Origin: a virus
Lineage: Duplodnaviria; Caudoviricetes
Reading direction: 5' to 3' (one strand)
IMG/VR virus record: IMGVR_UViG_3300032303_001999
Location: 1 to 55,956 of that record
DNA length: 55,956 nucleotides
A program made the position numbers and the translations under genes. Below, piece by piece: positions 20,161-52,674 of this stretch (position 1 is the first letter of the stretch; every line of letters begins with the position of its first letter). The notes beneath the pieces were generated by a model, which was given only the letters and a program-made list of their open reading frames with translations, did no database searches and was not told where the DNA came from.

Positions 20161-20209
20161 TACATAAGCCAAAAGATTCAGAGCAAGAACGGAAGAGATT
20201 TGTTAGTGG

Positions 20210-20220: not shown

Positions 20221-20268
20221 AGTGATAGAGGTGATTGCTGGATAGGATCCTTGGCGGATTAGTTGAGC

Positions 20269-23450: not shown

Positions 23451-23452
23451 TA

Positions 23453-25623: not shown

Positions 25624-27845
25624 GCGGGTGTCGGATTACCGCCAGCTAGGCCAGCGTCAACAGGGACACTTTTCGTTCCGCCAACGCTAGGAGCGGGTGA
25701 GCCAGGGGATCCAGCTTGGCCAAATACTCGTCCGTCTGGAGTGATCCCATTCTGGGTGGGAGGCGGGGCAAAAGGCTGAATGATGGCCTCTGCATCCACA
25801 ATCCCGAGGGCTTTGAGGCTCTGGTTGTAGAACAAGGCGACTTTCTGCTGAACCTCTGGAGGAAGGCCGTAGAATTGGGTTACAAGGCCAGCGGCCTGTG
25901 CGTTGCTTTGTAATTGCTGTTCCCCATGATAGCGGGTCAATAGGAGCCGAATATTGATGTTTATATCGGTTATTTCCTCTGGGGTGATCGTCACAAGTTG
26001 GAGTGCATCGCCTTCCAAATAGTTGAACATTTCCTTTTTGTTCATGTTGTCCAACAGGATCAAGACCAGCCGATTGACCACTTGGGACAGGGCTGGCTCT
26101 AAGGACATTAGGTACTGCGAGAACATTTCGTTGCCCGCTTGGTCGATGCTTCGGATGCCAGTAGCCAGCTTGCTTGAGGGCAAGCCAGAGAACTCTTGGT
26201 CGCCTCCGTTCATCACCCCTGACTCGAGTTGGACGAGCTGGGTAAAGTATTGAAGCATGAAATTGAGATCCTTTTCCTTTGACTCTGGTAGAGCCACATA
26301 GGTCAAGGCGTCGGCGGCCGCAAAACCTGGGCGAAGCGTATAAGTGCCTCCCGAATTGAGGATTAAATTGGGATTTGCTGACCCTTCAAAGGTCGCATCT
26401 GGACGCCAGAAAGTGACTCGCCCGCTTGAGCTTTGGCTGAAATTAAGGCGGTTAATGGTCAGATCCATGAAGTCCTGAGAGGTCTTGAACTGCTCCACTC
26501 CGCCCATTCCGTACCAGCGTCCGTCCACAGGGTTCACTCGTACTACGGTGAATGGCCTACGACCATCGGAGGTCACATTGGCCACATACTCGTAGAAGAT
26601 TGCCCGCTGATTGCGAACATCCAGAAGAAGCATGATTTCCTCGGTGATTCCGTCTCCGTTTGCATCGTACCGCAGATAGCATTCTGCAATTTCCATCGTT
26701 GGATTGTTGAAGGTGTTGTTTGGCTCATAGGCTTCGCCACGCTCCGTTCTGGCCTGTTTAGCACCAGTCTTTGGGATGCCAGACTCGCTGGCAGAAAGGC
26801 GGATCTGGTCAATCGCCGCTTGGATTCGGAGCATCTCCTCTTCGGGAGTCTCTTCGCTTTTCGACCCTTTCTTGTTGTAAAGGTCGGCCAACTCCATAAT
26901 AGGAGCGTCATAAAGGTGAGCCACGAAGTCGGCATCATCCACAGAGGTTGCATTGAGTGGGCAGATAAAGTCTTGGTAGTAGACAGGCTCGGCAGTCGGC
27001 CCTTCGGAGATAATTGCCCTTCGTGTAATTGTCTGCTCAATAAACACAGGAACAGGGGGCTGAATTGTGGCCATATCCCGCCTCAAAAGCATAATAGGTT
27101 CACCAATCTCGTTCTGGGCTGGGACAAAGCTGTCCTTATCGGTAATGAAATCTCCGTCCGTTGCGAGGATTGGCTGGCCGTTTAGATCCACCAGAACCTT
27201 TGCATTCCTCTGATAGACTTGCTCTTTTTTAACGTGGGTCGTCTTGACCACGCATTCGCCACGGACAAACGCCAATTGCAAAGCCATTGCCAAGGCATCT
27301 TTCACTCCAAGCCTGTTAAACTTGTAGCGGGAGTACCGCTCTACCTTTTCTGCGATGTCCCTGTCGGCCGCTCCTTCGGGCAGGGCGGAGAACCAAGGAT
27401 CTGTGCCAAGGAAGTATTTTTGAGCTTTGGCGATCATTTGCCGAACGATACGGCGGGTGACAGGCACGATTAGGTTGCTCTGCTCAAAGATCCCGCCCAT
27501 GACCGCTGGACGCCAGGACACATTGTTTTCGTAGATCCACTCAAAGATCTGACGGCGACCAAGGAATGTCTCGAAGGCCATCAACGAGGTCGGGTTGGTG
27601 TTGTAAGCAGTATTACGGACGATACTTCGCCCCATCTCCACCTCGAGCTTGCGGAGGCGCTCCCATGCGTGGCGAACTAACTCCTTTTCTTGTTCTTCGG
27701 TCAACTTATAGGCTGTTGGGAAGGCAACCGCAGTAGGGGTTCCGCCACCCAAAGCCCGAGCGTTCGGTCCGCTTCGGGCAGAATCAAGAGCTTTCTCGAG
27801 CTCTTCGGCCTTTTTTACGAGGTTATCTACTTGATTCTCAGCCAT
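25620..27845 (-). CDS. Portal protein
   Basis: About 740 aa; IAECY..YD.NGDGI.E, RPF...NP...RWYG.G, LATGI motifs of P22/N4-like portals. Confidence 0.85.
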   Translation of the reverse strand: MAENQVDNLVKKAEELEKALDSARSGPNARALGGGTPTAVAFPTAYKLTEEQEKELVRHAWERLRKLEVEMGRSIVRNTAYNTNPTSLMAFETFLGRRQIFEWIYENNVSWRPAVMGGIFEQSNLIVPVTRRIVRQMIAKAQKYFLGTDPWFSALPEGAADRDIAEKVERYSRYKFNRLGVKDALAMALQLAFVRGECVVKTTHVKKEQVYQRNAKVLVDLNGQPILATDGDFITDKDSFVPAQNEIGEPIMLLRRDMATIQPPVPVFIEQTITRRAIISEGPTAEPVYYQDFICPLNATSVDDADFVAHLYDAPIMELADLYNKKGSKSEETPEEEMLRIQAAIDQIRLSASESGIPKTGAKQARTERGEAYEPNNTFNNPTMEIAECYLRYDANGDGITEEIMLLLDVRNQRAIFYEYVANVTSDGRRPFTVVRVNPVDGRWYGMGGVEQFKTSQDFMDLTINRLNFSQSSSGRVTFWRPDATFEGSANPNLILNSGGTYTLRPGFAAADALTYVALPESKEKDLNFMLQYFTQLVQLESGVMNGGDQEFSGLPSSKLATGIRSIDQAGNEMFSQYLMSLEPALSQVVNRLVLILLDNMNKKEMFNYLEGDALQLVTITPEEITDININIRLLLTRYHGEQQLQSNAQAAGLVTQFYGLPPEVQQKVALFYNQSLKALGIVDAEAIIQPFAPPPTQNGITPDGRVFGQAGSPGSPAPSVGGTKSVPVDAGLAGGNPTPA

Positions 27846-27879
27846 ATTCGATTTCAACCATCAATGGCGAGGCGTGCGA

Positions 27880-30800
27880 CTACTTTGTCTGCTTTGCGTC
27901 GCTCATCGCATATCTCTGTCTGACAATCTGTTCCTCGTATTTATTGCGGAGCTTGGAGGCTAAATCTTGGATTTTCTTCTTCTTTGCGTCAGTCGGGTTG
28001 GCGATATCGGCTTCGGTGATGTTCACCTCGAACAAGGCCTGTAGCTGGGGCTGGACAATGGAGTTCAGCGTCTCCTGTTCCCGCAGAGTCAGCCTAACTT
28101 TCTTTTTGCTGTAGGGATCTGTGATTTCGGCTCTGGGTGAGTTGAGGATCCAAGTCTTCCCATCCGTTGAGATCTGTTGCCTGTTGTAGGATTCCACGAA
28201 CCGATTGAGCTTAGAGGCTGGCTTTTTCTTGTAGACGGCCACAGGGGAGAGATTCCTAAGTGCGAACTTCGCAACCTTGCCAGCCGTGCTGTTGGGCACG
28301 ACCTCTGTGAACGGCTTAACAACCTTTTTGCCCTCGTAGTCGTAAGCGTATGGAGTCCTGTATCCAGTCGCATTCGGGTATGCTCCCACAAGAGGAGCAA
28401 ACTTTGACAGCATCCTGTCTTTGTTTAACAGGCTTGGCTCTTCGGATTTAGTTCTCGATACATAATCTCTTGAGGCCTCTATAAGACCCCTAGCGGCTGG
28501 AGGGGCTGTAAATACAGATGCAAAATCAATAACAGGGTCAACCACGTTCCAGTCAACGAACAATGTCTTTGCTGTACGGAGTTGTCCTCCGAATGTCTTC
28601 TGGGCAAGGATTCTGCTGAAATCGCCAACAAGGTTTTGAGAAACGGCAATGCCCCCGCCACGATGAACTGCGTCTTTTACTGCTGTTCCTAGTGCAACAC
28701 CAAAGCCCATAGTTGACGCAAACGGCTCAATTCTGCTGATATCGAACTCTTTGTCCCCAATTCGGATCATATAAGATCTGTGGCCATAGCGAGTGGTTCT
28801 CCCAGCTGAATCAGCCTGGGCGGCGGGGCCAGTAATCAACAGGAACTTCTTATCGTCATCCTTGTCTCCTTCCATGCTTCTAAACAGAGCCATCAGAATT
28901 GCTGTTCCGATTGCTCCTTCGGTAAGGCCAGCGACAGAGTTCTCGTAGTTGCTCAGATCCATAAACCTCTGGCCTTCTCTGTTTTTCTTAATGGAATTCA
29001 TTGCTCCGATTGCTGAGTCGGCAAGGCCGATAGGGGTGAAGGCAAGTCCACGAGCCAGCACATTGTAGGAGATTCTGGCGAACAGGGTAAGGCCTCGAAG
29101 AACTTGCAGACCCATTGACCCAGTAAAGGCCACAGGAGCGGTGACAGCCCTTGCTCCATTGTTCGGATCAAATCCCCAGCTTTCAAGGTTTTTGGAAAGA
29201 TCAGAGATGCTCCTGCTTAACTTGTTCAGTGCTCGAGGGGCGGCCTTACCGAGCCTCTTGAAAGTAAATGGCTCGTCTTTGTTGTCGGCTACATCCTCGT
29301 TAAGGGTTTCACGAGAAGACCGCTCAACCGCAATCTTCCACGAATCAGATCCGAATTCGCTGACTTGGTTTCTTACATAGTCGACAATCTCTTGGCCTTT
29401 CAGCCCCTTTGCCTTTGCCATTCTAAATGCAATGGATCCGACAAGAGTTTCTGCGGCAAACGATTTTGCGAACTCGTCAGCGGCCAATAAAGCTCGCAGG
29501 GGCAATCGAACCTTCTTTCCGAGGGGTCCAGGGATCTTGGGATCGTTCTCGTAGAACTTCTGATCGCCTTCGTCCAGCATGGTCGCATCGGTATGATCGA
29601 TATTGTAGTAAGGCTTCTCGGTATTGAATGCCAAGCGGGCGTATCTCGTTCCGTTAATTACGGAAGGCAACATAGCCATAAACCCAAGCTTTGCCTCATC
29701 GGTGGCTCCGTTGACCACGTCAGACAAACTGGCGTATGGATTGCCAATCGTTCCGTCTGGAAGCCTTACATTGAGGCCAGCCTTGCCCATGATGTAAGAC
29801 ATACCCGCCTCGACCATTCTGTAGAATGGGTTTAGAAATGTGAGAGGGGTCTTTGATACGTTGGCAAGCTGGGTTGAGGTGCTGGATACAAGCAGGGCAA
29901 CGTGGGCTTCAAATACTGCATCGCCGATGCTGGCCTGTTTGCCTTGAGACCTACGAACCATCTGCATGGCGACTCCAATGTTGCTTGGCTTTCTCCAGTC
30001 AAACAGAGAGCTTTTGCCGTCCACATTATGCCAATCGGCCTTACCAGAAGTATCGGACTGCCCTGCGTAATCAAATCCCATGGCTGACACAATCTCTGCG
30101 AGAATCTCTTCCTTGGTGAGGGGAGCCTCTTCTTGGTTGGCTTCGATACCCCTAGACCGCAGGGATGCTCCGTTGGCAAATGCGGTCAACTTTGCTTTCA
30201 ACTGGCTTCTTGTGATCCCTTGGGTCGCAAGCTCTCCAGCTACTTGGTCAAACCTCTGTTTTGTGTTTGTCTCAAGTGATTTCATTAACTGCATCACTCT
30301 GGCTGGCTTGATTCCAGCTTGTTTGGCGGCCGCCATCGGAACCATACCAGCCATCACGAGTCGGATCGCCTCGGCGTCATCTTTAGACATCTTGATTGTG
30401 TCCAGCACGTCTTGAGCTGATTTGCTCTCACGGATCTTGAGCTGGGCTGTCTCCCAGTCCATCTGCTCGAGGCTTGTGTTTGCTTTAGCCAGCTCTGCTT
30501 GTAAGGCCTCGATCTTCCTTGCGGATTCCTGTTCCAGGACTTGATATTTGTCCAACTGATCTGCCCATAGTTGATTGGCGTCTTGGAACTCTTTAATCCG
30601 TCCCTCCATATACGCCCCCCATTTCTGCCATTGTTCGTTAGCATTAAAGGCCTCTCCAGCTTGGCTTTTTGCTTTGTCTAGCTCGGCTTGAAGGATAGCA
30701 ATTTGTTCATTGTGACCAGCAATCGTTCTCTTTTTGAGGGTTCTTGAGATGGCGTTCTTGTACAGCTCGTTAGAATCTGGGCTTCTTCTGTAGAGTTCCG

Positions 30801-33800
30801 CATTGAAGAATGACCGATTCCGCTCTTCTGGGGTCATCTGGCTATCCCGCCCAATACGGAACGCACGAGCCAGATTTGTCCTCTGGATATCGTTAGCCAT
30901 TGTTAGAATCGCAATTTCACGAAGCTGCTCTGGTGTCTTTGCTGTCTTTGCATCCTCGGCAAGGGCTAGGTAGACCGCCGCTTGATTCGTTGCCGATGTC
31001 TCGAGAGTTCCTTCAAGGAGATCCTCGTAAAGTTGTGCTTTGTGAGTAGCGACCAAGGCTCTGGCGGCCGCCTCAACGGATGCGTCAGTCTCAACTGTGT
31101 CAGTCGGTCTACGTAGTTCTCTGGCTACTCGTTGCACATCACGGAACTGATCGTTTGCAAATGGGCCAGCACTACGGACATCTTGACCTACATAGGGGGC
31201 GCCGACTTCATAGGGAGCGTTCTCTTCGGATGCCCTTTGGTAGGTGGCGTCAATCTCCTCGTCGGTAATGACGCTTCCAGATGCTCCCAAAAAGGAGGCA
31301 AGCAAGTCGTTCAGCGGAGCTTGTTGTGCTCCATTATTGATTGGTTCTTCCTCTGGCATCGGGGGAAGTCCTCGTGAATAGAGCTTAGTACTTGGATTTT
31401 TACCGCTCTCTTTATACAACAACCTCTTGAGTACTTCTGGATTTTGCTTGAGGTACTCAGCTCGGAGTTTAACTGGACTCAATCCTTTGCCTTGATATTT
31501 TGCCTCAAACGACTCTGGAAGCATTGCGTTTTGCATGAAATCTGTGAAAGCATTTTCTCTTTGTTTCCCATAAAGACCGCCTTTAGGGAGAGCCTCTACT
31601 GCCTTTGCCATTGGGGATTCTCCACTCAAAGCAGATGAAACCTCCATCAGCCCTCGTGAGAACAAGGATAGTTGCTCCATCTTAGGCTTGGGAACTGCTG
31701 ACTCTTGCTCCAAGACCAAGTCCTCTGCTGGGGCGGGGGGCTTTACGCTTTCATCTACTTGCATGAGATCCGATTGGAAGGCAATTCCAGGCCATTTTTC
31801 TTCACGAGCTTTGTTCATCAGCATTGTGTAAAGGGCTTCCTCTTGCGGCGATAGCGACTGGGGAGGAACAGGCCGATAGTAACCATCGTCCTCTTTCTGA
31901 TAGGATCCGTGCTTCTTTTTGTGGAGCTGTAAGAGCTTGGTCTTTAGGACATCAATGTTGTTCCTGTCTTTGTCTTGAATCTTGATTCCACGAGAAAACA
32001 GGGTGGCCTGTTCGAGCTTTTTCTCGACGTTGCCTTGGCGGAGATTCTCAACCATCTTCATAAAGTCGAAGGGCTGGCTGGATAGTTCCAAGGCGGCAGA
32101 TTGCCCTTGGGTCAGAATGGTCGGCTTGATTGCCGAGTTCTGCATCATTGCGTTTCTGGCTTCTTGAGGAAGCTCGGCCGCCAAGGCTTGCATGTACTCT
32201 TTGAGGTTTCCGTTAATCTCAATTCCAGCCTGTCCTGGTATCGAGGCCATCTCAGTTTGGAATCTGCTGTCGCTGTACATTTCGGTGACAAATTCGTGAA
32301 TGTTCCCAAGGCCGTAGTAGATCGAGCGAACCTTCTGCGGGTCAGTCTGGATGTCTGTGACCTTTGTTCGGAACATTGGGGCTGTCGCACGAACCTTGTA
32401 AGATGCGTAGAAGAGGGGTTCTAGGTTTTGCTGGCGAAGTTTCTCAATGCCGCTTGGGGTCAGAACAAGGGTCGTGTTCTGCACTCCATTTGTTTCCATT
32501 CCGCCCAATGCCTCTTCATCCGTCTGGTTCAAAAACACAAAGTCTGGGGATCCCTTGGAGGCCACAAGGCTCATCCCAGAGTTCCGACCCATTGGGCGTG
32601 TTCCTTCCAGCCCTTGATCCTTTAGGTACTTGAGGAGAGGGAAGGTGTTCTCGCTGGTGATTTCGGCCTTCATGTGAATCCCATCCTGACCAATTGGCTC
32701 TTCGTAAGGAGCCATGTGCAGGGTCACGTCATAGGTAGATGCCAATCCAGTCCCGAAAACAGCGTCTGCCACAGGGTTGCCAGCGGTATCCTTAGATACG
32801 TTAACAGCCGCTAAATAGGCCTTAATTAGGGCTTTGAGGGGCTTGTATCCTCCCTTACTTCCGCTTGCCAAGGGCAGGGGATTGCCTTCTGCGTCCATTT
32901 CTATATCTGGGCGGTTTGCGTACTCGACAAGTCTATCCAGCTCCTTCTTGCCTGTGGCCGTACCGATTCCTTCTTTGACTAAAAGGTTGTGAGTCAGAAC
33001 GTGCTTGTATTCGTGAATCGTGGTTTCAATTGGTTCACCGCTGTTTTTGATCCCATTAAGGCTCAATACGACCATTCCGTTACCCTCTTTGGATGGCTTG
33101 TAGTACGACCTTACAAAAGTCGGATCTGGGTTGATTTCGGCTGGGACATATAGCCCAGCGGTCATCATGCTTTGCTTGGTGTTTGGGGTGGTCAGCAGTT
33201 TAGCCAATGCTCTTTGGCTTGGTAGTGCGTCTGGCTCGTTCGCAACGGCTGTAAGGAGATCCCTAAACAAGACGCTATTTCCAGCGTTCTTGTCCAAGTA
33301 GCTCACCAGGCCACGAGAGAACAGGGTCATCTGACCCTTGGTTTCTTCAATAGCCTTAAAGCCTTCCATCGGGCTGGCTTCGGTAGGCTCTTGGTCTTCT
33401 TTTGCCGTGGGAGCGTCGATTCCTAGGAAATTCGCATATTTGGATAGTTGACCCTTGAGGCTCTGGATGTGCTTAAAGACCCACGTTCTGTCTGGGGCGA
33501 CTTCTCCATCGAGGTTGCCCACGTTCCTCGATTTGTAGGCCTCGGGAGTCTCGGAGATCTGCTGATAGCTTGCTCCGCTGACATACATCATAAAAATCTT
33601 CCTGTCGGAATCGGCCAGCGAGGCCATGACCTTTTCGAGCTTGTCGTAGAGTTCTTTGTTGGATTCTGGGGCTTCTTTTAGGGCCATGTAGTCTCCCACG
33701 GACGCTTCTTCCTGTTCGACATCGCCCTCTTCATTGAATGTCCCGCTTATCGGAGCGTCTTTTGATATGGTCTCCCGATTCTTGGCTTCCTCTTGCATCT

Positions 33801-36800
33801 GCTTAATGCGGTTATCAACGGCAGACAGGATGAAGTTAGGCACGTTCTCGATTAGTTCGCCTTTGGTGTTTTGGCCGTGACGCTGGTTAATCTGTGCCTG
33901 TAGGGCGATTGCGTAGTCGTATAGGTTCTCGTGGATCTCGTCCTCACCCAAGTTTCCAGCTTGGAGCCATCCGTCATCCGATGCCTTCATCGCCTTGTAG
34001 CGAATGTTTCTTCCAATGACTCCTTCTGGCGCGAAGTCTTTTGCGTTATCGTCGGTTAAGAATCCTTCTACGACTTGCTCTTTGGCTCGGCCTTGACCAG
34101 CTTCACGTTTTAGACCCCTTGAGCGTAGCGAGAACCCATTCTTTGGTCCTCGATACATCCAAGCATCATGTCCTTGATTGATTTTAGCCACGATCATCGT
34201 TGCGATGGCGTTGCTGTTGTCTAATGCCTCTTTCCTATACCCCTCGTTCTTGTCATCGAGGAATGCTTTGTCTGGGATATAGAGGTTGTGACCAGAGATC
34301 ATTGACCCATCGCTGAACACTACAGGCCGAGGCTTACCTTCCTCGTCCATAATGTTGTCCATAACTTTGCCGACTGGCCCAAGCAAGGATCCTTGGCCTT
34401 TGGCTACTTCTGACTTGAGATTTACTAGGTTGTCGGAGTTGACCCCAGCGGGCATCACTACGCCAGTTGTCTTGCCACCATCCTTGGTCGTGAAGGTGGT
34501 GACCGCCGCTGGGACATTAGCCCCGAACATAGAGGAAACAAAATTCGCCCCTGTGAGGAGATTGCCCTCGACCACAAACTGGTCTCTCTGGGTCGCGTTC
34601 TGCCTTGATCTATCGTAGGTCTTGCCGAATCCGTCACCCTTACGGCTTTCAGGCATCTTTTCCTCAACGTATCTATTCCAAGAATCTGGATCTAAGGCGT
34701 TATCTCCAGTAGTAAGCACCTTGTTGATTGCCTCGTTGAATACTCGGTTCTCGATCTCAGATTCTTCCATTCCGCTCTCGTGCATCTGAACTGCCATCTC
34801 GTATGCAACTGCATTAACCTCTCGCAGTTGTTCTGGGGGAAGAGTGTCCACGTCTACACGGCGAGACCCGCGCATAAAAACGACCAGACCAGATCCGTCC
34901 GTGTTGCGGTAAATGCCAGTCGGAAGGTTGGCAATCGGAACGCTTGGGTCGCGGGTAGGGGCTTCGTTTTCGCCGATTGGTGACTTATCCAGAGAGACCT
35001 TGAAGGGGTTTACGTGAGCGAGTTCTGATGCTTGTAGCGGGATTCTGACTTTGTTCTCAAACCCAGAGGTCTGGAGAACTAGGTACTGCCGACTTTCGGC
35101 GTGGGGGAAGCGGTTGTTTAGCTCAACCCCTACGACATAGGAGGGGATCTGCTTTGTGTCTTTTCCAAACCAAGCTCCTTTGCCCACTAGGTCTAAGGCT
35201 CGTTCTACATTGGCCCTTACCTCTGCTGACTTCTTTCTCGTGTTCTCCAAAGCCCTTACCTTTGCCAGTTGCTCCATCCGTGGGTTGCTTGAAATGCGGG
35301 CCAGCTTGTCCTTTAGGACAGAGTCGCTGGCTTTTAAGAAGTCTGATACGGCTGTTTCGGCCTGTTGCTTGGCCTTTTCGAGGGTCGGGATTAGCTCTGC
35401 CGAGGTCGGAGGAGGAATCGGGTTATTGAATCGGTATTTGGCGATGCGGGCTGGTTTAGAAAATGCGTCTTCACCAGACTTGGATTCTGGAACGCTTGGA
35501 TTATCCCTAAGAACATCTTCTAGCTGAGTCCAGTTGCCAGACCCATCTTCCAGCTCGTTTTGTGCTTTAAGCAGAATTTCAGATCCAAAGCTGGTAGTGT
35601 TCTCGCTTGCTTTATATACAAGCGTGTCTTTTGATATTTTTGAAGAGAAACGAGGAGTTCCAAGCACAAGGCCAGCATTAAGCTCTCTTAGTGTTACAGG
35701 CCCAAGTACCTCTCCACCCTCTGGATTTGCGTAAAAATACAGCTTGTCGGCGTTCTTTTGCGGTAGTGTTTTGTCCGAACTTGCAACCCCATACGCATCC
35801 CAAGCCTTCTCGTCAGACAGCTTCTCGGCCTTGTAGTCTTTCTCTTGCGATTCCAGCTCGTAGGTTCCGTTCTGCTTGGCGAAATCCACCATAGCAACGT
35901 ATTCGGCTGTGATTTCCTCGAAGAAATGCCTCTGATCTTCAATATCCAAGATCAAGGCCTTGTGGATCATCCTCCGCATTCCGTCCCCTGGCTCACCAGA
36001 AGTTAGGATCCTTCGGATGTCATCGTACTTCTCGGGGAAGTTCGTTCCAGCTCTGGTGTTGTAGGCCGTTCGTAGCTCTGGTTCGTTAGCCAATACACGG
36101 GCAACGGCGTTGTCTCCGTAGGTATTGAGCATATCCAGCCCAAGGTTCTCGCCAGCGGCGGTTGCGTCTTTGCCAGTTGTGGATGCACCTAGCCGACGCA
36201 TCTTCTTTTGGGTCATCGCCATGATCCGAGCTTCGGCAGGGATGTCTTCGCTATAGATGTAGATGAGTTTCGGAAGGCTCTGCTGGCTGTTGCGGTTTGT
36301 TCTGCCAAGCATTTGAAGCGTATCCGTAATGTCGGCCGCTGGTTGCATAACGATGTGGGTTCTTGGAGCCGCAACTTTATTTCTGGGATCGTCTTGAGCC
36401 GACATCCCTGTTGATGCTGGACGCCCAACTACCAAGGCTCTGAGGTTTTCGCTATTCCTAAATCCTAGCAAAGCATTCTGCTTGTCTTGGTCGGTCATAG
36501 ATCTCTGGGCAAATTCGCCAGACGGGGTGACTACAATGTCTCGACCCGATATTTCACCACTTAAGATTTGCCGTCTTTGTAGTTCCGCACGCAAGGCATC
36601 AAATGGACTGATCGGGAGCTTATTGAGGGTCTCGGCGTTGTCTTTGATGATTAGGGCTAGATCCTTGAACCCAGTCTCCATTAAGGAGTCGTGAAGCTCG
36701 ATGGACTTTTGACTTACCCAGCTAGGAATTCTGGACTTGCCGTTGGTCTTGTTCCAATCAATCGTGAATTCAAGGGCAGGGGCATTGCTCTTTTCATCCG

Positions 36801-39800
36801 CTGGCTCGATCTTGACCTTGTTTGTGTTGAGCTTCCTTGCGTACCGCTCCATGAAATCCTTAAAGGTGACTTTTGCGGTCTTGTCGTAGCTTTGAAGGCT
36901 TCCGCCCTCCATAATCTCTCTGGCATCACGAAGGAATGTCTCTCCTGTTGTATCTAGTGATATGAAAGCTTTCCGCCCTGCTTTGATCTCGGCTTCGGCT
37001 AGGTCTGCTGTGTCTTTGATTTTAGCTCCAAGAACCATGTTAGCGGCGACATTATGGAATTGCCCAGAAAGAGGATAGATAAGAGCTTTTGCTGTCGTGC
37101 CTTCATATTCTTCCTGTGCATCTACTACAAGCTGTTCGGTCAACTTCTTCATCTTTTCGCCGATCTCGATCTGCCTCATTTCGCCGAGGATTTCATTTGC
37201 GGCGTTATGGGCATCAATGACCTCTTGCTTGGCTTTGATTGGTGTTGGAATGAAGGGGATCTTCTGTCCCTTCCAAGTAAATCCACTCTGGAGTCGGAAC
37301 ATCTGCCCAGCCCGAGCCAGCATACTGCTGGTCATCTGCATAAATGGATTGCCGAACCGCTTGGCGAGTCTCTCAAACTCACTTGCGGTAGGTACAGCCA
37401 TTGGGATGCTGGTCTTGGGGAAGTAGGTGGCGATGTTGGCGGGGCTTTTGATAGCCGTTGCCGAAGAGAACACCGCTCCTCGTGATCTCGGAATTACACT
37501 TCTAAAGAATTCGCCGATAGAGCTGTCTGTTCCCGCCGCAGTATGGCTTTCGTCGAGAATGAAGATTGCCCTGTCTGCAATTGCATTAAGGGCGGGGATA
37601 ACATCCTTTTTGGCTGAAGAGCTGATCTGGGCATAGGTAGTAAAGATTGCGTTATGTTCGCTGGGCAATTTCCCGCTCTGTGCGATAAGTCGGAGCTTCT
37701 GGATCGGGTTCTTCATCGTAACAGGGCGACCCTTGCTACGCATTGAACTCCAGTTGTTATTTGTGATGAGAGGCTTGATCTGCCCTTCAAATCCGACGTC
37801 CTCAATATCGTCCATCATTGCTACATACAGAGGCTCTGATTTAGTCACAAAAACTGGGATAAGGCCCTTGGGCAGGGCGTAAGTAAAGATAAGCGCCCCT
37901 ACTGGGCGACCCTTACCAACGCCCATCTCGTGTCCAATAATAACGCTTTTGCCTTTATCAATCTGATTGATGGTAAGGGCGATGGTCTCTAAGGCTTCTG
38001 CTGAAAGCCGTTCCTCGCCGTCATCCCGTTTGAAAATCTTGTCTAAAGGAATTCCCAAAGTCTTTGAGACGTACTGCGGGATTGGGCCGACTTCTTTAAC
38101 AAGCTCGTCAAACGCAAAACGCTGTTCTGGTGCTAGGTTGGCGGGGGATGATAGGCCTAAAGAGTAGTAGCCATCTATCTTCTTGGATTCTTCCTCTCCA
38201 ACTGGAGTCCAGCTCTCTTGTAGCTCGGCCTTTTCTTGGTCTTTGTCGATCTGCTCTTCCCGAGGATCTGGGGCAGGGAGGCCTCTGGAACTTAACGACG
38301 AGCTTGGCCTTGTTTTGGCGAGCGTCTTCTCGACGGCCTTCTGGGCGGCTGAACTTATCGTCCCAGCGTAATCATCGACCAGAGGAATTGGTTGTCCAAA
38401 GATATCTGTTTCGCCCATATCCTTGCGGTCTTGGATCTTGGCTTCCAGCTCTGAGGCCAGATTGTTTAGGTAGCTGGAGAGCTTTGCGCTGGAATCTCTG
38501 AAATCGTAAATAGGCTGGAAGACATCGGCGGCAGTTTGGTCAAGGATGTTTTCCGCAAGTCCAGGGATCTGGCTTCGGTTGTTCTCGACGAACGACTGCC
38601 AATCCTTTGGAGTGTTCACTCCTCCAGCCCTCTTAGCCTCGAGATAGGCCTGTAGTGATTTTGCTATTGGGACAAGAGGGTCGAGCTTCTCGGCTTTTTC
38701 TGCTCCTAGAACCTCTGTGGCTATCTGCCGCAATGAAACAAGTCGGGTAACTGATTTCGTTAGGGCGGCGGCCAAGGTCTTTATACCAGAATTGCCATTC
38801 TCTGGGTCGGTAATTGCAGATATGATGATCTTTTCGGAGTCCGATATTACTCCATTGTTGGAGCTGGCAATCGCATCGGCCAGAAGGGCAGAGGTTACTC
38901 GATCCTTGAAGGCCTTGGTAAAGCTCTCGTCGTTGTTCCTGTACTGCTGTGGCGAGCCGAATATCTCAAAGAACTTCTGCTGAATCGCAACGCTTTCTGG
39001 ACTTTCCGACAGATCTCCGTTTTCGTTTTGCTTGATATCTCGGAGTTCTGGGTTGTCTTGTATTTCACGAGCATCGGAGACGGCAAGCTCTTCAGTCGCC
39101 AAAGTCCCTGTATTTGCCCTTACCGCAAGCCTCCTCAAAAACTGCTCTGGCGTTTTGTTGACGCCCAACCCAGTTGCCGTCTTGTTGGACTCTTCAAAAC
39201 TCGCCATTAGATCCATCTCGGTGACCACAATCGGCATCTTCATAGATCGGATCTGTTCGGCCATTTCTGGGAACTTCTCCATCAGCTTGGCTCGGTAGGC
39301 GGCCGCCCGCTCTGGGTAGCGACGGAACATTTCTATCATTGCCTTGATCCGTCCGTGACCGCTTACGATTTCGTTCTTATCGGTAAGGATGGGTGCGCCG
39401 TCTCCTGTAGATGTTCCTGGCATCGCTTTGTCTGGATCCCAGTTGCGAGCCATAGTCTCAATCTGTGTTTTATAAGCATCCCGATCTTTTCGGTTTCTGG
39501 GCTGGATGTCCGTGCCTTCCATGTCCTTGGCTTCGGTGGCCTCGATGATTTTTGGATTTCCAACAATTGTTGAACCAGTAAAGCCCTGCGTGAAGGCTTT
39601 AATTGTGTTTTCTTTGGCTTTTGGTGCGGGCGGGGCAGGGGGAACAGGCGGAGCGGGCGGAGCTGGTGGCTCTGGAGGAGTTGGAGGGGCGGGTGGCTCT
39701 ACTTGTTCTGTGACTGGCTCTGGCTGTGTCTGAGCCTCTTGGGCAGGGGCTGTCGTGGGTCTAGGATTTGCTCCAGTCGATGGAAGGTTGGGCTGAACTA

Positions 39801-42800
39801 GGCCACCAGAACGCTCTCCAGTCACGGACGGAGAAGGGACGCCAAAATCAGACCAAGCCTGTTTGTTGCCTTTTAACGCTTCTTGAATGCGGTTTAAGAC
39901 ATCATCCAGTTCAGCGCCTACCTTGGGATTTGCGGAAGAAAGAGCCTTACGCATCCGACTTAGGGATTTGTAAACGGCCATGATATACTGCTTAATCTGG
40001 GCGATAAGATCCTTAACCTTTGTTCCAACAGCTCTTTCTCCAGAAGCATATCGCCCTTGAGCGGCAGTCCGAAGCTCAACCCTGTTTTCGGTAAGGCCAG
40101 ATTTGTTTTCAATCTGACCAAGCTGTCTGAGCATTTCGCTCATTACCTGCATTGTTTTTACTTTGTCTCCTCCAAGATAAGTTCGGATTTCTTGAGCTCC
40201 AGCAGGGGAGGAATCAAAATCGGTATTTGGATCGTACAGGGAAATTGAAGAAATTAGTGCTTTTAGGACTTGTTCGTTGCCTTCCGCCACCTCAAGGATG
40301 TCGTTAAATTGCTTGTTTCTTCTCTCAACGTGGTAAGCCCCGTATTCTTCGGGTCTTAATCCCTTTGCCTTGGCCTCCTTAATTGAGACAGAAAAATCGC
40401 CAACATGAAGAAGTTCCTCGTGGAACGCTCTGTTGTTTAGTTCTGGATCTTGGGAATCTTGTAATTTGAAATAGCTTGGATCCACCTTGAGGGAGATAGA
40501 TCCATCGTCTCCAATGGTGGCGTTCATCGAGGTTCCGCCAATTTCGCCCTCTTCGTAGGACAGTTTTACCCCGTCCACGGATAGGCTTTTTGAAAGTTCC
40601 TCTGTCTTGGCTTTTGCCGATGCGATTCTGTCAACCGATGTGCCCCCAGAAAGCCTGTTCCCAGCTCTTTCCATTAACTTTTGCGGAGTGTTTAATAGTG
40701 GCTCTTCCTCTTGCTCGACCTCTCCTCGGTTTCTTCTCCATAGATCAGCGCCAGCCATTCCAGAGGCAGATGGTTCAAATGAATCTACCGCAAACTCTAG
40801 TCTCTCGATGTCTGCCTTGACCTCCTGATATCTTGAAATGGCTGGAACGTCTTTTGCAAACTTCTCGGCAAAAGCGGGCTCAAGAATTGTGTTTCCGTCA
40901 GTTGTGTGTTGAAAAATTGGAACGCCGTTAAGTTTGTATTTTTCAGACTCAATGGTCGGTTTGCCACCAGTAATCACAAATGCGGCCGCAATGGCCGCTT
41001 GTCTTGGACTTACATCGCTTTTGGAAGCTGGAGTATCGGAAAGAGATTGGATTTGCTCTCTGGCTTGGTTTTGAGATACGGCAAGGGTTTGAAGCGAGTT
41101 GGCTATGTCAGCCCTTACTGCCCAGTAATAGGCCTGTTTATTTGCATCAAGGCCCGCTGACAGCCTTGCATCCAATTCTTTACCAGCGGCAATCAGTCGT
41201 TCGGCTGGTTTTAATCCTTTTGCCTCTGGCTCAGACTCGGCGATTGGCCTTGCGTTGAGGACTACTTCTGATTGGCCTGTGGCCCCAAGGCTATTTGCCC
41301 ATGCTTCCCATCCCCCCATCGGAACGTCGGCTGACCCCTTTTTAAGTTCGTTTATGACTTGCTCGTGACCAGCCTCTTCGTTGCCTTCGATGCCATGGAT
41401 AAACCCAGAATATCCGCCTATAGTTGCACCGCCTAGGAAGCCGAGTGCTCCAGAATTGATGTAATCTTGCCAAGCCGACTTATCGTTTAGGGTTTGACCA
41501 GCCCCAAGTCTTTCTAGCCAAGTTTGACCGAATTCTGTTCCGCCTTCCAATGCGCCAGTCCATCCAAAACCAAGGAGACCAGCGATTGCCTTTGAATCTT
41601 TTGCTATGTTCTTAAATTTTTGCGGGATAAGGGGAAATTGTCCGTGAAACAAAACTTCAAGGCCCAGCTTGTCAGAAAGGCTTTCCATTCCGCCAGCCAC
41701 TATTCCAGTAGCCCAAACGCGAGCCAGATCCGTGCCAGTAATTTCTTCTCCAGATTTCTTTTTTTCGTCTACAAGGGTTGGATAAATTGTTCCAAGCTCT
41801 TGGGTAAAAGCGTTTGCGCCGATAAGTGCGGTTGAGCCAGCCCCTTTTGCTATTTGCTTAATTGCCTGTTCGGACGAGATTTTTACACCAGTCTTAACTG
41901 AGGTTTCTTCAATTTCCTTGGCAATCATTTTCCCGACAAGTTTCCCAGCCGCTTCGCGCACCATGCCTTTGGCAACCGCTCCAGTTCCGACTCCAGCTAA
42001 AGTTCCGAGCCCAGGCTCGGCCGCAGAACCCGCTATACCGCCAATAATCGACATGGCTACAGTTTCAGTCAGTTGGCCTCCAAGGTATCCAAGTCCATAG
42101 GTCATCCAGTCGACCATTGCCCCCACATCTCCATCTTTGGCCTTGGCCCATGCGGTTGTTACCTCGTCATTGTCTTGGTGAAGAGCCTCTGCACCAGCCA
42201 TGCCCTCCTTGTATCCGTTGTATCCCCAGTTCTTGACGTCTGTAGACACACCGCCTTGTCCAAAGAACTTTTCAGCCGTGGCTCCGCCCAAGGCTACCAT
42301 TCCCTTAACGATTGGGATGGTTTGGCGTAAGGCTACCTCGCCTCCTCGATAAATGTTTTTTAGATCTTTATAAGAATCGTCCCACTCGTCTTTTGTCGAT
42401 TGCCTTACAGCCTCGCTGTAGTTGGCGGCTTTCTGCTGAACAGCTTTAATCTCATTGTTAAGGGCTGTTTTGGCTTGCGGGTTTTCTTGGATGGCCTTGC
42501 TGGCCTTCACCGCAACTGAAATTGGGATATCCTTATTTTTGACAGCCTCTGGAAGTTTGTTGACTGCTTCTTTTGGATCCTCTGGAAGGATGGGTGGCTT
42601 GGGAGATTCCTTGGGGTTACCCAAGAAAACTCGCTGATTTGTTGCTCCAGCCATTTGGCTTGCTTGAGCGTCTATGCTTTCTTTTTGCGTCTTTGCTTCT
42701 TGTTTTGCGCTGTCGATAGTGTCTTTTTCAAGTTGCTGGGCTGATTCGAGGGACTGGTTGCCCATAATGACGCTTGGAAGCTTTTGCTTGAGGTCGGCCT

Positions 42801-45501: not shown

Positions 45502-45512
45502 ATGCGACGCAT
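45502..45512. promoter_or_regulatory. Perfect palindrome ATGCGACGCAT at terminase stop
   Basis: 60 bp upstream of ATG 45452. Confidence 0.8.
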
Positions 45513-47260
45513 TAGGAGTAGCTGGCAACAGGGGTTCTAGCCATATAGATTGGCTGAAGATCCTTCGGCAAAGTTCTTACCGCCGCTGGCGTGTTAAATC
45601 TAGTAGCCCCCGCAATAGTGGTAATTCCAATAGCTATTGCCAGAACATCGTCATCGTGCCTCCCAGCGGCCGCCTCGGATCTACCGCTTTCGGTAATAAC
45701 GAAGGTTTTTAGTTCCTCGATGGCGTGACGACAATATATGTCAATTCCAGACCCTTTTTCATCGTGGTCTCTAATAGCTGACGCAAGTTCCTCAATGACA
45801 ATACGTCTGGTCTTGTCTGTGGTCTGCCATCCCAAGGCTTTGCTACGCCTAGATTCTCGTAAATTGAAGATTTCACGCTGATAAAGGTTAACGCTGGACT
45901 CTTTAAGTAACTCAATAAGAGCCAGTCCTGGGCCGTTGACCTCTGGGACTACCAAACACCCTCCATAATGCAGGGAAAGTCTCTCTATAAACTCGGCCAA
46001 TACGTCAATATCGACTCGGCATGGAGGTCTTACCCTTGCCACGAGGGCAGGGCGGATCCACGAGCCGTCAGCATCAAAGTATCCAGCCCTTAAAACGACT
46101 ACAGAGTGGGAATCTGGGTCAGATCCAGAGACTTGGGAGTTTCCTGTCATGCAATCTGCTGAAATTAGGTATCTGCCGTTCTCTTTGGGGTTTTCCCATA
46201 TCCACGCCCAACTTTCGGCCATAGAACAGCTCCTAAATATGGGTTTTGTGAAGTTAGTAGGGACGTCGATTGTCCCATAAATTGGATCTTTTATGGTTTT
46301 TTCAAGGGCGGAGATTCCAGATAGGTCAAAACGAGGCCGTCCAGACGCCAAAAAGCAACTGATCGGGTCAGAAGGGTACTCTTGCTCAAATTGCTTAACA
46401 TCTCCACCGCACTTCTCCTTGATAACTCGGCGTCTCCACGCCAATTGATTGTCTGTCAGCAAAAATTCGTCCCTTAAAGATTGCTCCTTAAAGGACAGAT
46501 CAAGAGGCTCCGTATCTATTTCTTGGTTTTCCTCGAAGTTATGCCAAGCGGCGAAGATTCGGATGTATCCGTTTCCTGTTTTACCGCTTTTGTACTCGTC
46601 AAATGTGACCGCACTCTGCCATGTGTTGTAAAAAGCACCGCCAGCTCCGTTTGGGGTGGATTCCTCGATGACGATTGTGTTAGGTGAGGTGGGTACGCAG
46701 TTACGAATAGCCAACAGGATCTTCTCCCCAGACCGCTCCCCAGCTCGACGATAGTGGGCAACCTCGGAGCAGAGAAGGGCTTGGAGTGTCATGGATCGCC
46801 CTGCACCAGGATCGTTGGCGGTTTCCTTGGCTATTCGGCTTCCGTTGGATAATTCGCCTCGTGACACGCTGAATGTTTGCCCCCAGTCGAGGTTGTCGTT
46901 TTCTACATACCGATTGACCATATTCAAAAGGTTCTGGGAAGTATCCAGCTCGTCACCCAGAACACAGGCCGTGGCGTTTTCGGTGCTACGAATGAAATGG
47001 GTTATAACGGCAGCCGTTATAGTGCTTGAACCCATCTGCCGAGGCTTCAAAACAACAAGCCGAATGGGCTTTTGATTCTTTTTTAGCCAGCGGATGACTT
47101 GGGCAACGTGCTTCTGAAGATAGTTAGCCCTTGGGCTTACCAGTTTTGCGTCCTTAGTAAGGATTTTTGTGTAGGTCTCCCACCACGCAAGGAAATCGGC
47201 TTTTGCAACCGCCTCGATGGTTTCGAGAGTTACTTGCGCTTTTTCTTGTTCTTCGGCCAT
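45512..47260 (-). CDS. terL: Terminase large subunit
   Basis: VLKPRQMGSST Walker A, LLCSE Walker B, ESTPNG, FEQEYP, ISAD and HDDDV nuclease motifs; likely start MAEEQEK. Confidence 0.92.
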   Translation of the reverse strand: MAEEQEKAQVTLETIEAVAKADFLAWWETYTKILTKDAKLVSPRANYLQKHVAQVIRWLKKNQKPIRLVVLKPRQMGSSTITAAVITHFIRSTENATACVLGDELDTSQNLLNMVNRYVENDNLDWGQTFSVSRGELSNGSRIAKETANDPGAGRSMTLQALLCSEVAHYRRAGERSGEKILLAIRNCVPTSPNTIVIEESTPNGAGGAFYNTWQSAVTFDEYKSGKTGNGYIRIFAAWHNFEENQEIDTEPLDLSFKEQSLRDEFLLTDNQLAWRRRVIKEKCGGDVKQFEQEYPSDPISCFLASGRPRFDLSGISALEKTIKDPIYGTIDVPTNFTKPIFRSCSMAESWAWIWENPKENGRYLISADCMTGNSQVSGSDPDSHSVVVLRAGYFDADGSWIRPALVARVRPPCRVDIDVLAEFIERLSLHYGGCLVVPEVNGPGLALIELLKESSVNLYQREIFNLRESRRSKALGWQTTDKTRRIVIEELASAIRDHDEKGSGIDIYCRHAIEELKTFVITESGRSEAAAGRHDDDVLAIAIGITTIAGATRFNTPAAVRTLPKDLQPIYMARTPVASYS

Positions 47261-52624: not shown

Positions 52625-52674
52625 CGCTCCGCGGGGTGTGGTATCGCTTTTTATTTCAGATATTTGTCTTTGAA

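What the first reader, a model, noticed from the sequence alone, without database searches (positions are those of the whole stretch)
27880..44208. Giant protein punctuated by seven L-x-S-R-G-[LI] motifs: candidate self-cleaving polyprotein
Seen: LSSRGL (38278-38295), LRSRGL (34111-34128), LFSRGL (33307-33324), LFSRGI (31984-32001), LFSRGL (31648-31665), LYSRGL (31366-31383), LRSRGI (30145-30162). Codons differ between copies, so the motif appears conserved at protein level. The motifs fall at module boundaries: helicase, sigma-like module, HExxH peptidase, two small domains of about 90-110 aa, coiled coil, C-terminal helical domain. Known: phage polyvalent proteins carry zincin-like metallopeptidases proposed to release their domains. 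Inference: the internal HEYKH peptidase (33001-33015) cuts at these sites to release separate effectors after ejection or during head maturation.
Basis: partly seen in the sequence, partly recalled or inferred. Interest (0 to 1): 0.9.

Follow-up and report, generated by a model that had tools for sequence, protein, structure and literature searches.

The report
Giant phage protein with junction motifs
A 5442-residue protein that this phage probably carries inside its head has the same six-residue signature at every border between its modules, and relatives carry their own versions at the same borders, so it looks like a polyprotein cut into pieces, though the enzyme that would cut it is not identified.

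Summary
All seven L-x-S-R-G-[LI] motifs lie at the stated coordinates in one 5442-aa ORF (27880-44208, minus strand). Composition predicts 0.015 copies, and none occurs in any other frame of the window. The motif is kept in every close homologue that covers each site, with S->A tolerated. Extra cassettes inserted in relatives bring their own copy.

Distant relatives (21-33% identity) carry lineage-specific variants at the same module borders: AQRI, L-x-A-R-x-[ILA], L-x-A-R-x-P-D, L-x-A-R-[TLS]-S, LKSQNL. The shared core is L-x-[AS]-[RKQ].

The protein is a phage polyvalent protein (ddrB-ParB, Strawberry-notch-like helicase). Its C-terminal domain has the fold of podophage "internal virion proteins". 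The gene lies between the terminase and portal genes.

Cleavage sites are the best reading (about 0.55). The proposed cutter is not supported across the family. Three lineages keep strong junction motifs with no HExxH anywhere in the giant protein. One of them is a complete 64.9-kb genome with no credible HExxH gene. No library or fold search recognises the HEYKH module as a peptidase. No protease was identified at all.

The parts
27880..44208 (-). Giant ORF, 5442 aa (P0001): a polyvalent internal virion protein
41242..41259 (-). Candidate eighth junction site, LNARPI (aa 984-989)
   Evidence: LNAR[PS][IL] in 10 of 10 close homologues that cover it. P0018 has LQARSL at aa 878, a comparable distance from its N-terminus; this part was not aligned.
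39889..40719 (-). Conserved module of unknown function (aa about 1164-1440) with invariant PE..NR...EE..H..D
   Evidence: No PDB or Atlas lead.
39217..39558 (-). ddrB-like ParB domain (aa about 1551-1664)
   Evidence: PF18763, E 5.8e-17
38278..38295 (-). Junction motif 1, LSSRGL (aa 1972-1977)
   Evidence: kept in 11 of 11 homologues that cover it
35854..38010 (-). Strawberry-notch-like SF2 helicase (aa about 2067-2785)
   Evidence: PF13872 E 1.6e-7; PF13871 E 7e-14 and 8.4e-16
34111..34128 (-). Junction motif 2, LRSRGL (aa 3361-3366)
   Evidence: (13 of 13)
33325..34110 (-). Helical module with a weak sigma-70 region-4 / HTH signal (aa 3367-3628)
   Evidence: PF08281, E 0.0024, below cut-off; better-predicted block at about aa 3520-3600.
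33307..33324 (-). Junction motif 3, LFSRGL (aa 3629-3634)
   Evidence: 13 of 13
32002..33306 (-). HExxH module (aa 3635-4069; HEYKH at 33001-33015): candidate zincin, unconfirmed
   Evidence: H3732, E3733, H3736, E3746, E3972 and E3976 invariant in 17 rows. No family or fold match.
31984..32001 (-). Junction motif 4, LFSRGI (aa 4070-4075)
   Evidence: 13 of 13, of which 6 read LFARGI
31666..31983 (-). Small module 1 (aa 4076-4181)
   Evidence: pLDDT 60-78 block. No family.
31648..31665 (-). Junction motif 5, LFSRGL (aa 4182-4187); site of cassette insertion in relatives
   Evidence: (101 inserted alignment columns)
31384..31647 (-). Small module 2 (aa 4188-4275)
   Evidence: also present in P0020
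31366..31383 (-). Junction motif 6, LYSRGL (aa 4276-4281); site of cassette insertion in relatives
   Evidence: (72 inserted columns)
30163..31365 (-). Helical / coiled-coil module (aa 4282-4682)
30145..30162 (-). Junction motif 7, LRSRGI (aa 4683-4688)
   Evidence: 12 of 12; lies in the pLDDT<50 stretch 20-33 of a model in which only 92 of 783 residues are below 50.
27883..30144 (-). Conserved C-terminal domain (aa 4689-5442), with the fold of phage internal virion proteins and of polyvalent-protein C-termini
   Evidence: the one module shared by all lineages; pLDDT 69.7, pTM 0.66; 40 BFVD matches at E<=1e-3, best 3.4e-16; no PDB match.
45512..47311 (-). Terminase large subunit (context)
25620..27857 (-). 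Portal protein, SU10 type (context)
   Evidence: PF23899, E 1.6e-25
19195..20172 (-). Scaffold-like acidic helical protein upstream of the capsid gene (context)
   Evidence: 50% identical to its G001 counterpart. No family. 'Scaffold' is my reading from position and composition.
17559..19154 (-). Major capsid protein (context)

Best explanation
The ORF encodes a polyvalent internal virion protein: a chain of effector and structural modules that ends in a conserved 'internal virion protein' domain. It is made late, packaged in the head and delivered with the DNA. The L-x-[SA]-R-G-[LI] hexapeptides are short linear motifs in flexible linkers at each module border. The most likely function is recognition sites for a sequence-specific protease that cuts the chain into about eight pieces: about 983, 988, 1389, 268, 441, 112, 94, 407 and 755 aa if the LNARPI site is also used. 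Cutting would happen during head maturation or after ejection. Shown: the motif, its position at module borders, its conservation, its lineage-specific co-variation, and the virion-protein nature of the C-terminal domain. Inferred: packaging, cleavage, its timing and the scissile bond. The cutter is unresolved. The family-wide core L-x-[AS]-[RKQ] persists in lineages without any HExxH, so a protease other than the HEYKH module is the more economical reading. That could be an unrecognised phage or host enzyme, or an unrecognised module of the protein itself. Of the 0.55 given here, about 0.2 is for the internal HEYKH module doing the cutting in this lineage.
For: The motif count is far above chance and confined to this ORF. 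Every site is kept in the close homologues that cover it: 13/13, 13/13, 13/13, 13/13, 13/13, 12/12, 11/11, and 10/10 for LNARPI, with only S->A, L->V and L<->I changes. Across 61 distinct site contexts, R and G are 61/61, [SA] 61/61, [LIM] 61/61 and L/V 61/61, while the flanks vary. Extra cassettes in P0002, P0009, P0010 and P0013 are each bounded by their own copy. Two of the three largest insertions in that alignment (101, 73 and 72 columns) fall exactly at motifs 5 and 6. Distant relatives have their own variant at the aligned borders. P0017 has [LMI]xAQR[LIMV] 8 times against 0.07 expected. P0018 has L-x-A-R-x-[ILA] (11 matches against 2.0, seven at borders). L016/G001 has L.AR.P 5 times against 0.11. 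L021 has LK.Q.L 5 times against 0.07. P0015 has L.AR.S 6 times against 0.22. L026 has Q.MA.P 6 times against 0.02. Site 7 lies in a pLDDT<50 linker of a reasonably confident model. Flanks are modestly enriched in disorder-promoting residues (0.618 against 0.56; 1.9% of random site sets reach this). The C-terminal domain matches internal virion proteins and polyvalent-protein C-termini, and the gene lies between terminase and portal. Precedent from passages read: Iyer et al. 2017 (PMC5512222) propose that embedded peptidases process polyvalent proteins and report that P1 DdrB (ParB plus MPTase) is processed before packaging. Prohead proteases of giant phages cut many head and ejection proteins at short motifs such as AXE (PMC5694885).
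Against: No protease was identified. No S78 family match was found in 5 of 5 related records, including 4 that are 100% complete. No Pfam peptidase was found in the giant proteins of the window, G001 or L021, or in 30 other window ORFs scanned. No cleavage product can be seen with these tools. The first structure model is poor (mean pLDDT 45.7; 614 of 961 residues below 50), so finding five sites in low-confidence stretches is weak evidence. No relative was found in which the gene is split at a junction; the one candidate, P0019, is a contig-edge truncation. Not every lineage shows an enriched motif: no clear junction word was found in L017, L023, L025, L027, L029, L030 and L032. N4 virion RNA polymerase and ArdC are polyvalent proteins delivered uncut, according to the passages read.
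Confidence: 0.55

Rival explanations
1. The first reader's version, nested within the cleavage reading: the internal HEYKH module is a zincin that cuts the chain at the seven motifs, in cis or in trans.
For: HExxH and several downstream Glu residues are invariant in the 17-row alignment, which includes two lineages at 25-28% identity. The hydrophobic residues before HExxH look zincin-like. The module is itself bounded by motifs 3 and 4. Iyer et al. propose this role for MPTase domains. A snapalysin chain ranks second in Foldseek, but at E 0.97, which is not significant.
Against: No match to any Pfam or PHROG peptidase family, to PDB sequences, to PDB folds or in the Atlas. The module is found only in the window clade, the P0017-like lineage and P0018. 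G001/L016 (6 sites; complete genome; no HExxH in the giant protein and only one elsewhere, in a 101-aa ORF I judge spurious), P0015 (7 to 9 sites; full 5141-aa protein) and L021 (5 sites; full 5664-aa ORF) keep junction motifs with no HExxH. In L014 a different HExxH-bearing cassette, which also holds a GHKL ATPase, sits between two sites that lie 17 aa apart in L016. HExxH modules therefore behave as exchangeable cargo.
Confidence: 0.2
2. The motifs are not cut. They are docking peptides, one per module. They might bind a common partner such as the capsid interior, scaffold, portal or a chaperone, and so load, order or unfold and refold the modules during packaging and ejection.
For: The motifs are short linear motifs in linkers. 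No protease was found. The scaffold-like protein ends in ...LLMARL (ELMAKL in G001), which resembles the core L-x-A-R. Lineage-specific variation would also fit co-evolution with a binding partner.
Against: Portal, capsid and scaffold proteins are 56-72% identical between the window and G001, yet the motifs differ in the residues after R (G-[LI] against x-P-D). The strict demand for a small residue followed by R/K/Q, and placement exactly at every module border, is what viral polyprotein sites look like (general knowledge, recalled). No partner is known.
Confidence: 0.25
3. The motif is a passive signature of cassette joints. Modules spread by duplication and recombination and carry a common linker end with them, with no biochemical function of its own.
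For: Cassettes come and go exactly at the motifs, leaving tandem copies 10-17 aa apart in P0002 and L016. The module content is a strong mosaic across lineages.
Against: The 18-nt coding strings differ at synonymous positions and are too short and too varied to guide homologous recombination. The residues are invariant while the flanks drift. Each lineage has homogenised its own variant across non-homologous borders, which implies selection on the peptide.
Confidence: 0.12
4. The motifs are beta-sliding-clamp binding motifs (QL[SD]LF type, consensus recalled) that tether modules to the host replisome.
For: Three sites read QMTLF, QATLF and QLSLF.
Against: Only 3 of 7 sites have Q-x-x-L-F. The invariant residues are S/A-R-G-[LI], not Q or F. 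Other lineages (LEARVPD, LKSQNLD, LQARTS) lack the pattern.
Confidence: 0.03

Closest known systems
Polyvalent proteins of phages and conjugative elements (Iyer, Burroughs, Anand, de Souza, Aravind 2017, PMC5512222; passages read)
   Same: A very large multidomain protein encoded among late virion genes. It has a DdrB-like ParB domain, an SWI2/SNF2-type (Strawberry-notch-like) helicase and an HExxH module. The architecture is a mosaic that changes between relatives. Processing by embedded peptidases has been proposed.
   Different: None of the Pfam LPD, MPTase-PolyVal or MuF families matches. The passages I read do not mention any recurrent border motif. Here the border motif persists without any HExxH module.
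Phage P1 DdrB (as described in PMC5512222)
   Same: A ParB-family domain plus an HExxH module in a head protein that is proteolytically processed before packaging.
   Different: P1 DdrB is far smaller, has a single reported processing event and no reported repeated site motif.
Prohead-protease processing of head and ejection proteins in T4, phiKZ and SPN3US (PMC5694885, passages read)
   Same: Short motifs with a fixed residue pattern are cut at many places in internal head proteins. In T4 the capsid-targeting propeptides end in such a site.
   Different: Those sites are spread over many separate proteins and end in Glu (AXE, S/A/G-X-E, L/I-x-E). Those phages encode a recognisable gp21/assemblin-like protease. 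None is detectable here (the S77 search had no working control).
Polyproteins of eukaryotic RNA viruses (analogy drawn in PMC5512222; site patterns recalled)
   Same: One chain of unrelated enzymes separated by a repeated, lineage-specific site with a small residue and a Q/R/K-type residue.
   Different: This is a dsDNA tailed phage. The domains are unrelated and no protease is identified.
Internal virion proteins of T7-like cyanophages and pelagiphages (names as given in BFVD)
   Same: The C-terminal 750 aa share their predicted fold (TM normalised to the query about 0.4-0.5; E 1e-7 to 1e-10).
   Different: Those are stand-alone proteins of about 770-1230 aa. Here the domain is the last module of a 5442-aa chain. 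No solved structure matches.

Membership tests
Polyvalent protein (sensu Iyer et al. 2017) | A large single polypeptide that combines several unrelated effector domains | tested here: met
   5442 aa with a ddrB-ParB domain, a Strawberry-notch-type helicase, an HTH-like module, an HExxH module and further modules
Polyvalent protein (sensu Iyer et al. 2017) | Encoded by a phage or mobile element among virion or transfer genes | tested here: met
   Lies between terminase and portal; capsid and adaptor genes are nearby
Polyvalent protein (sensu Iyer et al. 2017) | Delivered into the host with the DNA | not testable with these tools
   Inferred only from the fold of the C-terminal domain and from gene position
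Zincin-like metallopeptidase (MPTase) | Conserved HExxH on a helix | tested here: met
   H3732, E3733 and H3736 are invariant in 17 rows, including P0017 and P0018
Zincin-like metallopeptidase (MPTase) | Sequence match to a curated metallopeptidase family | tested here: not met
   No Pfam or PHROG peptidase hit at E<=0.1 / 0.01. Best PDB sequence hit has E 0.32 and is an ejection protein, not significant.
Zincin-like metallopeptidase (MPTase) | Zincin fold with a third metal ligand | tested here: inconclusive
   The model is too poor (pLDDT about 50-74 in the core). Foldseek against the PDB gives a best E of 0.92. Invariant E3746, E3972 and E3976 are candidate ligands.
Virus polyprotein with protease sites | A repeated sequence-specific site at each domain border | tested here: met
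Virus polyprotein with protease sites | Sites accessible in linkers | tested here: met
   Clear for site 7. Weak for sites 2-6 because the model is poor. Flank composition gives p about 0.02.
Virus polyprotein with protease sites | A cognate protease | tested here: not met
   None recognised in the window, G001 or L021
Virus polyprotein with protease sites | Cleavage products observed | not testable with these tools
   Needs proteomics
Substrate of an assemblin/gp21-like prohead protease | The phage encodes an S78- or S77-type protease | tested here: not met
   S78: 0 of 5 records, and the control genomes did match. S77: 0 of 5, but the control matched nowhere, so that search is uninformative.
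Beta-clamp binding motif | Q-x-x-[LM]-F core at each copy (consensus recalled) | tested here: not met
   3 of 7 sites; absent from the variants of other lineages
Phage internal virion / ejection protein | Fold shared with annotated internal virion proteins | tested here: met
   40 BFVD matches at E<=1e-3. They include four rows named 'Internal virion protein' and many polyvalent-protein C-termini. The names are the database's own and the functions are untested.

The most novel reading that the evidence does not exclude
Tailed phages of this group use a true polyprotein strategy. A chain of 4000-5700 aa of swappable anti-host and structural cassettes is packaged as one molecule and then cut at a lineage-specific 'junction code' (core L-x-[AS]-[RKQ]). 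The protease belongs to no described family. It could be a module of the giant protein itself, for instance the conserved PE..NR...EE..H..D module in most lineages, or an unrecognised phage gene. The code and the protease co-evolve, while the cargo cassettes are exchanged freely between phages.
Probability: 0.3. Interest if true: 0.85.

Novelty: new variant of a known kind. Interest (0 to 1): 0.72.

Why it matters
Polyvalent proteins are thought to be the first weapons that a phage or plasmid delivers into a cell, but how a chain of many enzymes is deployed is unknown. A repeated border motif that co-varies between lineages gives a concrete, testable handle. It predicts the exact pieces and the residues to mutate, and it gives a way to search for the missing protease by matching motif variants to gene content across relatives. 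The family is not rare: 32 loci were recovered from one virus collection, and most are giant ORFs in genomes of about 60-65 kb. The giant gene diverges far faster than the portal or capsid genes (about 24% against 64-72% identity between the window and G001), as expected for an arms-race gene. If cleavage is confirmed, this would be an explicit polyprotein system in tailed phages, and the cassettes between sites would form a catalogue of candidate counter-defence effectors.

Tried and rejected
Split-gene evidence. P0019 (1222 aa) appeared to be a stand-alone coiled-coil plus C-terminal form that starts 5 residues before a junction motif. Its contig begins 11 nt upstream and the frame is open to the edge, so it is a truncation. 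L023 and L027 are complete, shorter giant ORFs preceded by small unrelated ORFs, so they are not split forms.

Internal translation start at the conserved Met before site 5. By eye, I saw no Shine-Dalgarno-like sequence upstream.

Prohead-protease link through other head proteins. The strict motif does not occur in the portal, capsid or scaffold-like proteins. G001's scaffold-like protein has IRARNPD, which fits G001's own variant, but the window's protein has the same IRARNPD, so it does not co-vary.

The conserved EE..H..D module as a universal cutter. It is present in P0001, P0015, P0017, P0018, P0020, G001, L014, L019 and L022, but is not detected in the complete L021 ORF, which still has junction motifs. 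It has no PDB or Atlas lead.

The HExxH modules of other lineages (L014, L019, L026, L027, L032, L028). None matches a Pfam peptidase. The L014 cassette carries a GHKL ATPase.

tblastn of the C-terminal 2106 aa against 50,697 deposited phage genomes gave no match.

The search for the L014 cassette in G001 found nothing. That search also missed the known, more distant HExxH modules of L019 and L009, so it only excludes a close copy. The regex scan of the whole G001 genome is the stronger test.

Complex prediction with the HExxH module, Zn and the junction-5 linker returned 'no answer' (score 0.00). It counts neither way.

Foldseek of the poor first model against the PDB gave nothing significant. 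The ESM Atlas gave no named lead for the HExxH module or the EE..H..D module, apart from one cluster in which LPD23 is on 18% of members.

Literature. Six full-text searches listed no paper that describes a repeated border motif in a phage polyvalent or ejection protein. I read passages only of PMC5512222, PMC5694885, PMC4498786 and the bioRxiv preprint 10.64898/2026.04.10.717836. Supplementary files, and the domain-architecture files of Iyer et al. on an ftp site, were not seen and might bear on this. The herpesvirus assemblin site (V/L/I)-x-A|S, the T4 gp21 site L/I-x-E, the clamp-binding consensus and the C5-methyltransferase motifs that I read by eye in P0015 are recalled, not taken from a call. 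PMC4498786 did not give the assemblin consensus in the passages shown.
Full report
WHAT IS THERE. The window is a whole IMG/VR virus record of 55,956 nt, estimated 87% complete. On the minus strand a single ORF runs from 44208 to 27880 and encodes 5442 aa. It starts 4 nt before the end of the upstream 413-aa ORF. Its neighbours are the terminase large subunit (45512-47311) upstream and an SU10-type portal (25620-27857) downstream. A scaffold-like protein (19195-20172), the major capsid protein (17559-19154) and an SU10-type adaptor (16542-17219) lie further down. It is therefore a late, head-module gene of a podophage-like virus.

THE OBSERVATION. All seven L-x-S-R-G-[LI] hexapeptides are at the coordinates given, each encoded by a different 18-nt string. 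Composition predicts 0.015 copies. None of 1000 shuffles gave more than one copy, and no other frame of the window has the motif. An unbiased count of gapped words puts L.SRG at the top, apart from words from one polyproline linker. HEYKH is at 33001-33015. I add a probable eighth site, LNARPI at aa 984. Three near-matches inside the C-terminal domain lie in confidently predicted helices, are not conserved in distant relatives and are probably decoys.

THE MODULES. Pfam finds a ddrB-like ParB domain (E 5.8e-17) and a Strawberry-notch-type helicase (AAA_34 and Helicase_C_4). It also gives a sub-threshold sigma-70 region-4 signal between sites 2 and 3, and nothing elsewhere. PHROGs adds only families of unknown function. 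The motifs lie between these units:
- about 983 aa, then LNARPI;
- about 980 aa with a conserved unknown module and ParB, then site 1;
- 1383 aa with the helicase, then site 2;
- 262 aa, HTH-like, then site 3;
- 435 aa with HEYKH, then site 4;
- 106 aa, then site 5;
- 88 aa, then site 6;
- 401 aa, helical, then site 7;
- 754 aa, the C-terminal domain.

HOMOLOGUES. A word-indexed search found 13 close relatives (73-95% identical over the last 2143 aa) and one distant relative. An exhaustive HMMER search with aa 3601-4703 found only 8 proteins, three of them distant giants. Each site is kept in every close relative that covers it: 10/10, 11/11, 13/13 for five sites, and 12/12. The only changes are S->A, L->V and L<->I. 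Over 61 distinct site contexts the five defining positions are invariant in class, while the flanks vary. Where relatives have extra sequence it comes as cassettes that bring their own motif copy (P0002, P0009, P0010, P0013). Two of the three largest insertions in that alignment fall exactly at motifs 5 and 6.

DISTANT LINEAGES. This is the strongest evidence that the motif matters. In an alignment of the last 2200 aa, the borders that carry L-x-S-R-G-[LI] in the window carry other words in relatives: [LMI]-x-A-Q-R-[ILM] in P0017 and L-x-A-R-x-[ILA] in P0018. A scan of IMG/VR with the C-terminal alignment gave 32 loci. In 30 of them the ORF runs off the 5' end of the fetched DNA, so these are again giant genes, in records of up to about 65 kb.

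De novo word counts show lineage-specific repeated words: AQRI (L009, L013), L.AR.P (L014, L022, L016), LKSQ.L (L021), Q.MA.P (L026), L-x-A-K (L019, P0020) and L.AR.S (P0015). Each is 20 to 250 times above expectation. The common core is L-x-[AS]-[RKQ] followed by lineage-specific residues. Seven of the fifteen distant loci examined showed no clear junction word (L017, L023, L025, L027, L029, L030, L032).

ARE THE SITES IN LINKERS? The AlphaFold model of aa 3340-4300 is poor (mean pLDDT 45.7). All five sites in it fall in or straddle stretches below 50, between better-predicted blocks. However, 64% of the model is below 50, so this is weak evidence. The model of aa 4660-5442, built on 23 diverse sequences, is usable (pLDDT 69.7, pTM 0.66). 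Site 7 lies in one of its few disordered stretches, residues 20-33. The flanks of the seven sites are modestly enriched in disorder-promoting residues (p about 0.02).

WHAT THE PROTEIN IS. The C-terminal domain is the only module shared by all lineages. It has no PDB match. It matches 40 predicted viral structures at E<=1e-3. These include C-terminal parts of proteins named polyvalent, MuF or ART-PolyVal, and 'internal virion proteins' of Synechococcus and Pelagibacter podophages. Together with ParB, the helicase and the gene's position, this makes it a polyvalent internal virion protein in the sense of Iyer et al. 2017. The architecture is a mosaic: the helicase, ParB, HExxH and small modules are present in some lineages and absent in others. 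Between the window and the complete relative G001, the portal, capsid and terminase proteins are 64-72% identical, but the giant protein's C-terminal domain is only about 24% identical.

WHO CUTS? In its favour, HExxH and several Glu residues are invariant across three lineages. Against it, nothing recognises the module as a peptidase, and it is restricted to those three lineages.

The decisive point is that junction motifs persist without HExxH:
- G001, the record of L016, is 64,882 nt with 127-nt terminal repeats and is rated 100% complete. It encodes a giant ORF of 4783 codons (stop to stop) with six L-x-[AS]-R-x-P-D sites and no HExxH. The only HExxH in any ORF of at least 100 aa in that genome is in a 101-aa ORF.
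- In its relative L014, an HExxH-bearing cassette that also holds a GHKL ATPase sits between two sites that are 17 aa apart in L016. The HExxH module there is removable cargo.
- P0015 (5141 aa, 7 to 9 sites) and the full L021 ORF (5664 aa, 5 sites) also lack HExxH.

No Pfam peptidase is found in the G001 or L021 giants. No S78 prohead protease is found in 5 of 5 records. The S77 search had no working control. A second conserved module (PE..NR...EE..H..D, aa about 1164-1440) is present in most motif-bearing lineages but not in L021, and it has no known relative. The cutter, if there is one, is unknown.

MECHANISM AND ODDS. A repeated, strictly conserved, lineage-specific peptide at every module border of a virus protein is what protease sites in polyproteins look like. 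I give cleavage about 0.55. About 0.2 of that is for the HEYKH module acting in this lineage. A non-proteolytic docking or loading motif gets 0.25. It would explain the missing protease, and the scaffold-like protein's C-terminus (...LLMARL) resembles the core. A passive cassette-joint signature gets about 0.12. It is disfavoured because codons differ and each lineage has homogenised its own variant. Clamp binding gets about 0.03 (3 of 7 sites only). The scissile bond cannot be placed. The invariant hydrophobic-x-small pattern recalls assemblin-type sites, which are cut after the small residue (recalled). Cutting after R/K/Q is equally possible.

NOVELTY. Polyvalent proteins, and the idea that peptidases release their domains, are in print (PMC5512222). 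The passages I read and six full-text searches did not turn up a repeated border motif, its co-variation between lineages, or its independence from the HExxH module. Supplements and the authors' ftp files were not seen. I rate this a new variant of a known kind, with interest 0.72.

LIMITS. Nothing here shows a cut. The close homologues are too similar to be independent, so the weight rests on the distant lineages. The complex prediction gave no answer.

Noticed in passing
window 20263-25448 (+ strand) and 53304-53942 (-): A block of four plus-strand ORFs (182, 880, 216 and 462 aa) with low G+C (0.43 against about 0.50) lies between the portal and scaffold-like genes. Its first ORF matches a G001 gene that lies in the opposite orientation relative to the portal. 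A serine recombinase (Resolvase, E 6.9e-41) is encoded at 53304-53942. This may be an invertible or recently acquired segment.
   Followed up: partly
window 39889-40719 (aa about 1164-1440 of the giant protein): A conserved module with invariant PE..NR...EE..H..D is found in nine lineages or proteins at about the same distance from the N-terminus. It has no Pfam, PDB or Atlas relative. It is a possible catalytic module of unknown kind.
   Followed up: partly
window 19195-20172 (-): The scaffold-like protein (50% identical to its G001 counterpart) contains a conserved ERKAL[KQ]IRARNPD and ends in LLMARL (ELMAKL in G001). Both resemble the family core L-x-A-R. This may be chance.
   Followed up: partly
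window 27883-30144 compared with G001: Portal, capsid and terminase proteins are 72%, 64% and 69% identical between the window and G001, but the giant protein's C-terminal domain is only about 24% identical. The giant gene either diverges much faster or is exchanged between phages.
   Followed up: partly
window 52636-53253 (+): A SET-domain protein (E 2.5e-10), that is, a lysine-methyltransferase-like gene in a phage.
   Followed up: no
window 9625-10680 (+), 10930-11676 (-), 11864-12514 (-), 3789-4874 (+): A group-1 glycosyltransferase, a calcineurin-like phosphoesterase, a weak CHAP-domain protein (likely the lysin) and a DUF2800 / PD-(D/E)XK nuclease.
   Followed up: no
L014:5849-7921 (a cassette absent from L016/G001): The cassette between two junction motifs carries a GHKL-type ATPase (HATPase_c_3, E 3.3e-12) followed by an HEITH motif. 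In L016 the two flanking motifs are 17 aa apart.
   Followed up: partly
P0015, about aa 3500-3750: Where the window has the HExxH module, P0015 has a stretch that by eye shows C5-cytosine methyltransferase-like motifs (recalled patterns, not tested with a family search).
   Followed up: no
window about 39800-39890 (aa about 1440-1470): A polyproline linker (PPAPP repeats) before the ParB region. It is the only word class more enriched than the junction motif.
   Followed up: no
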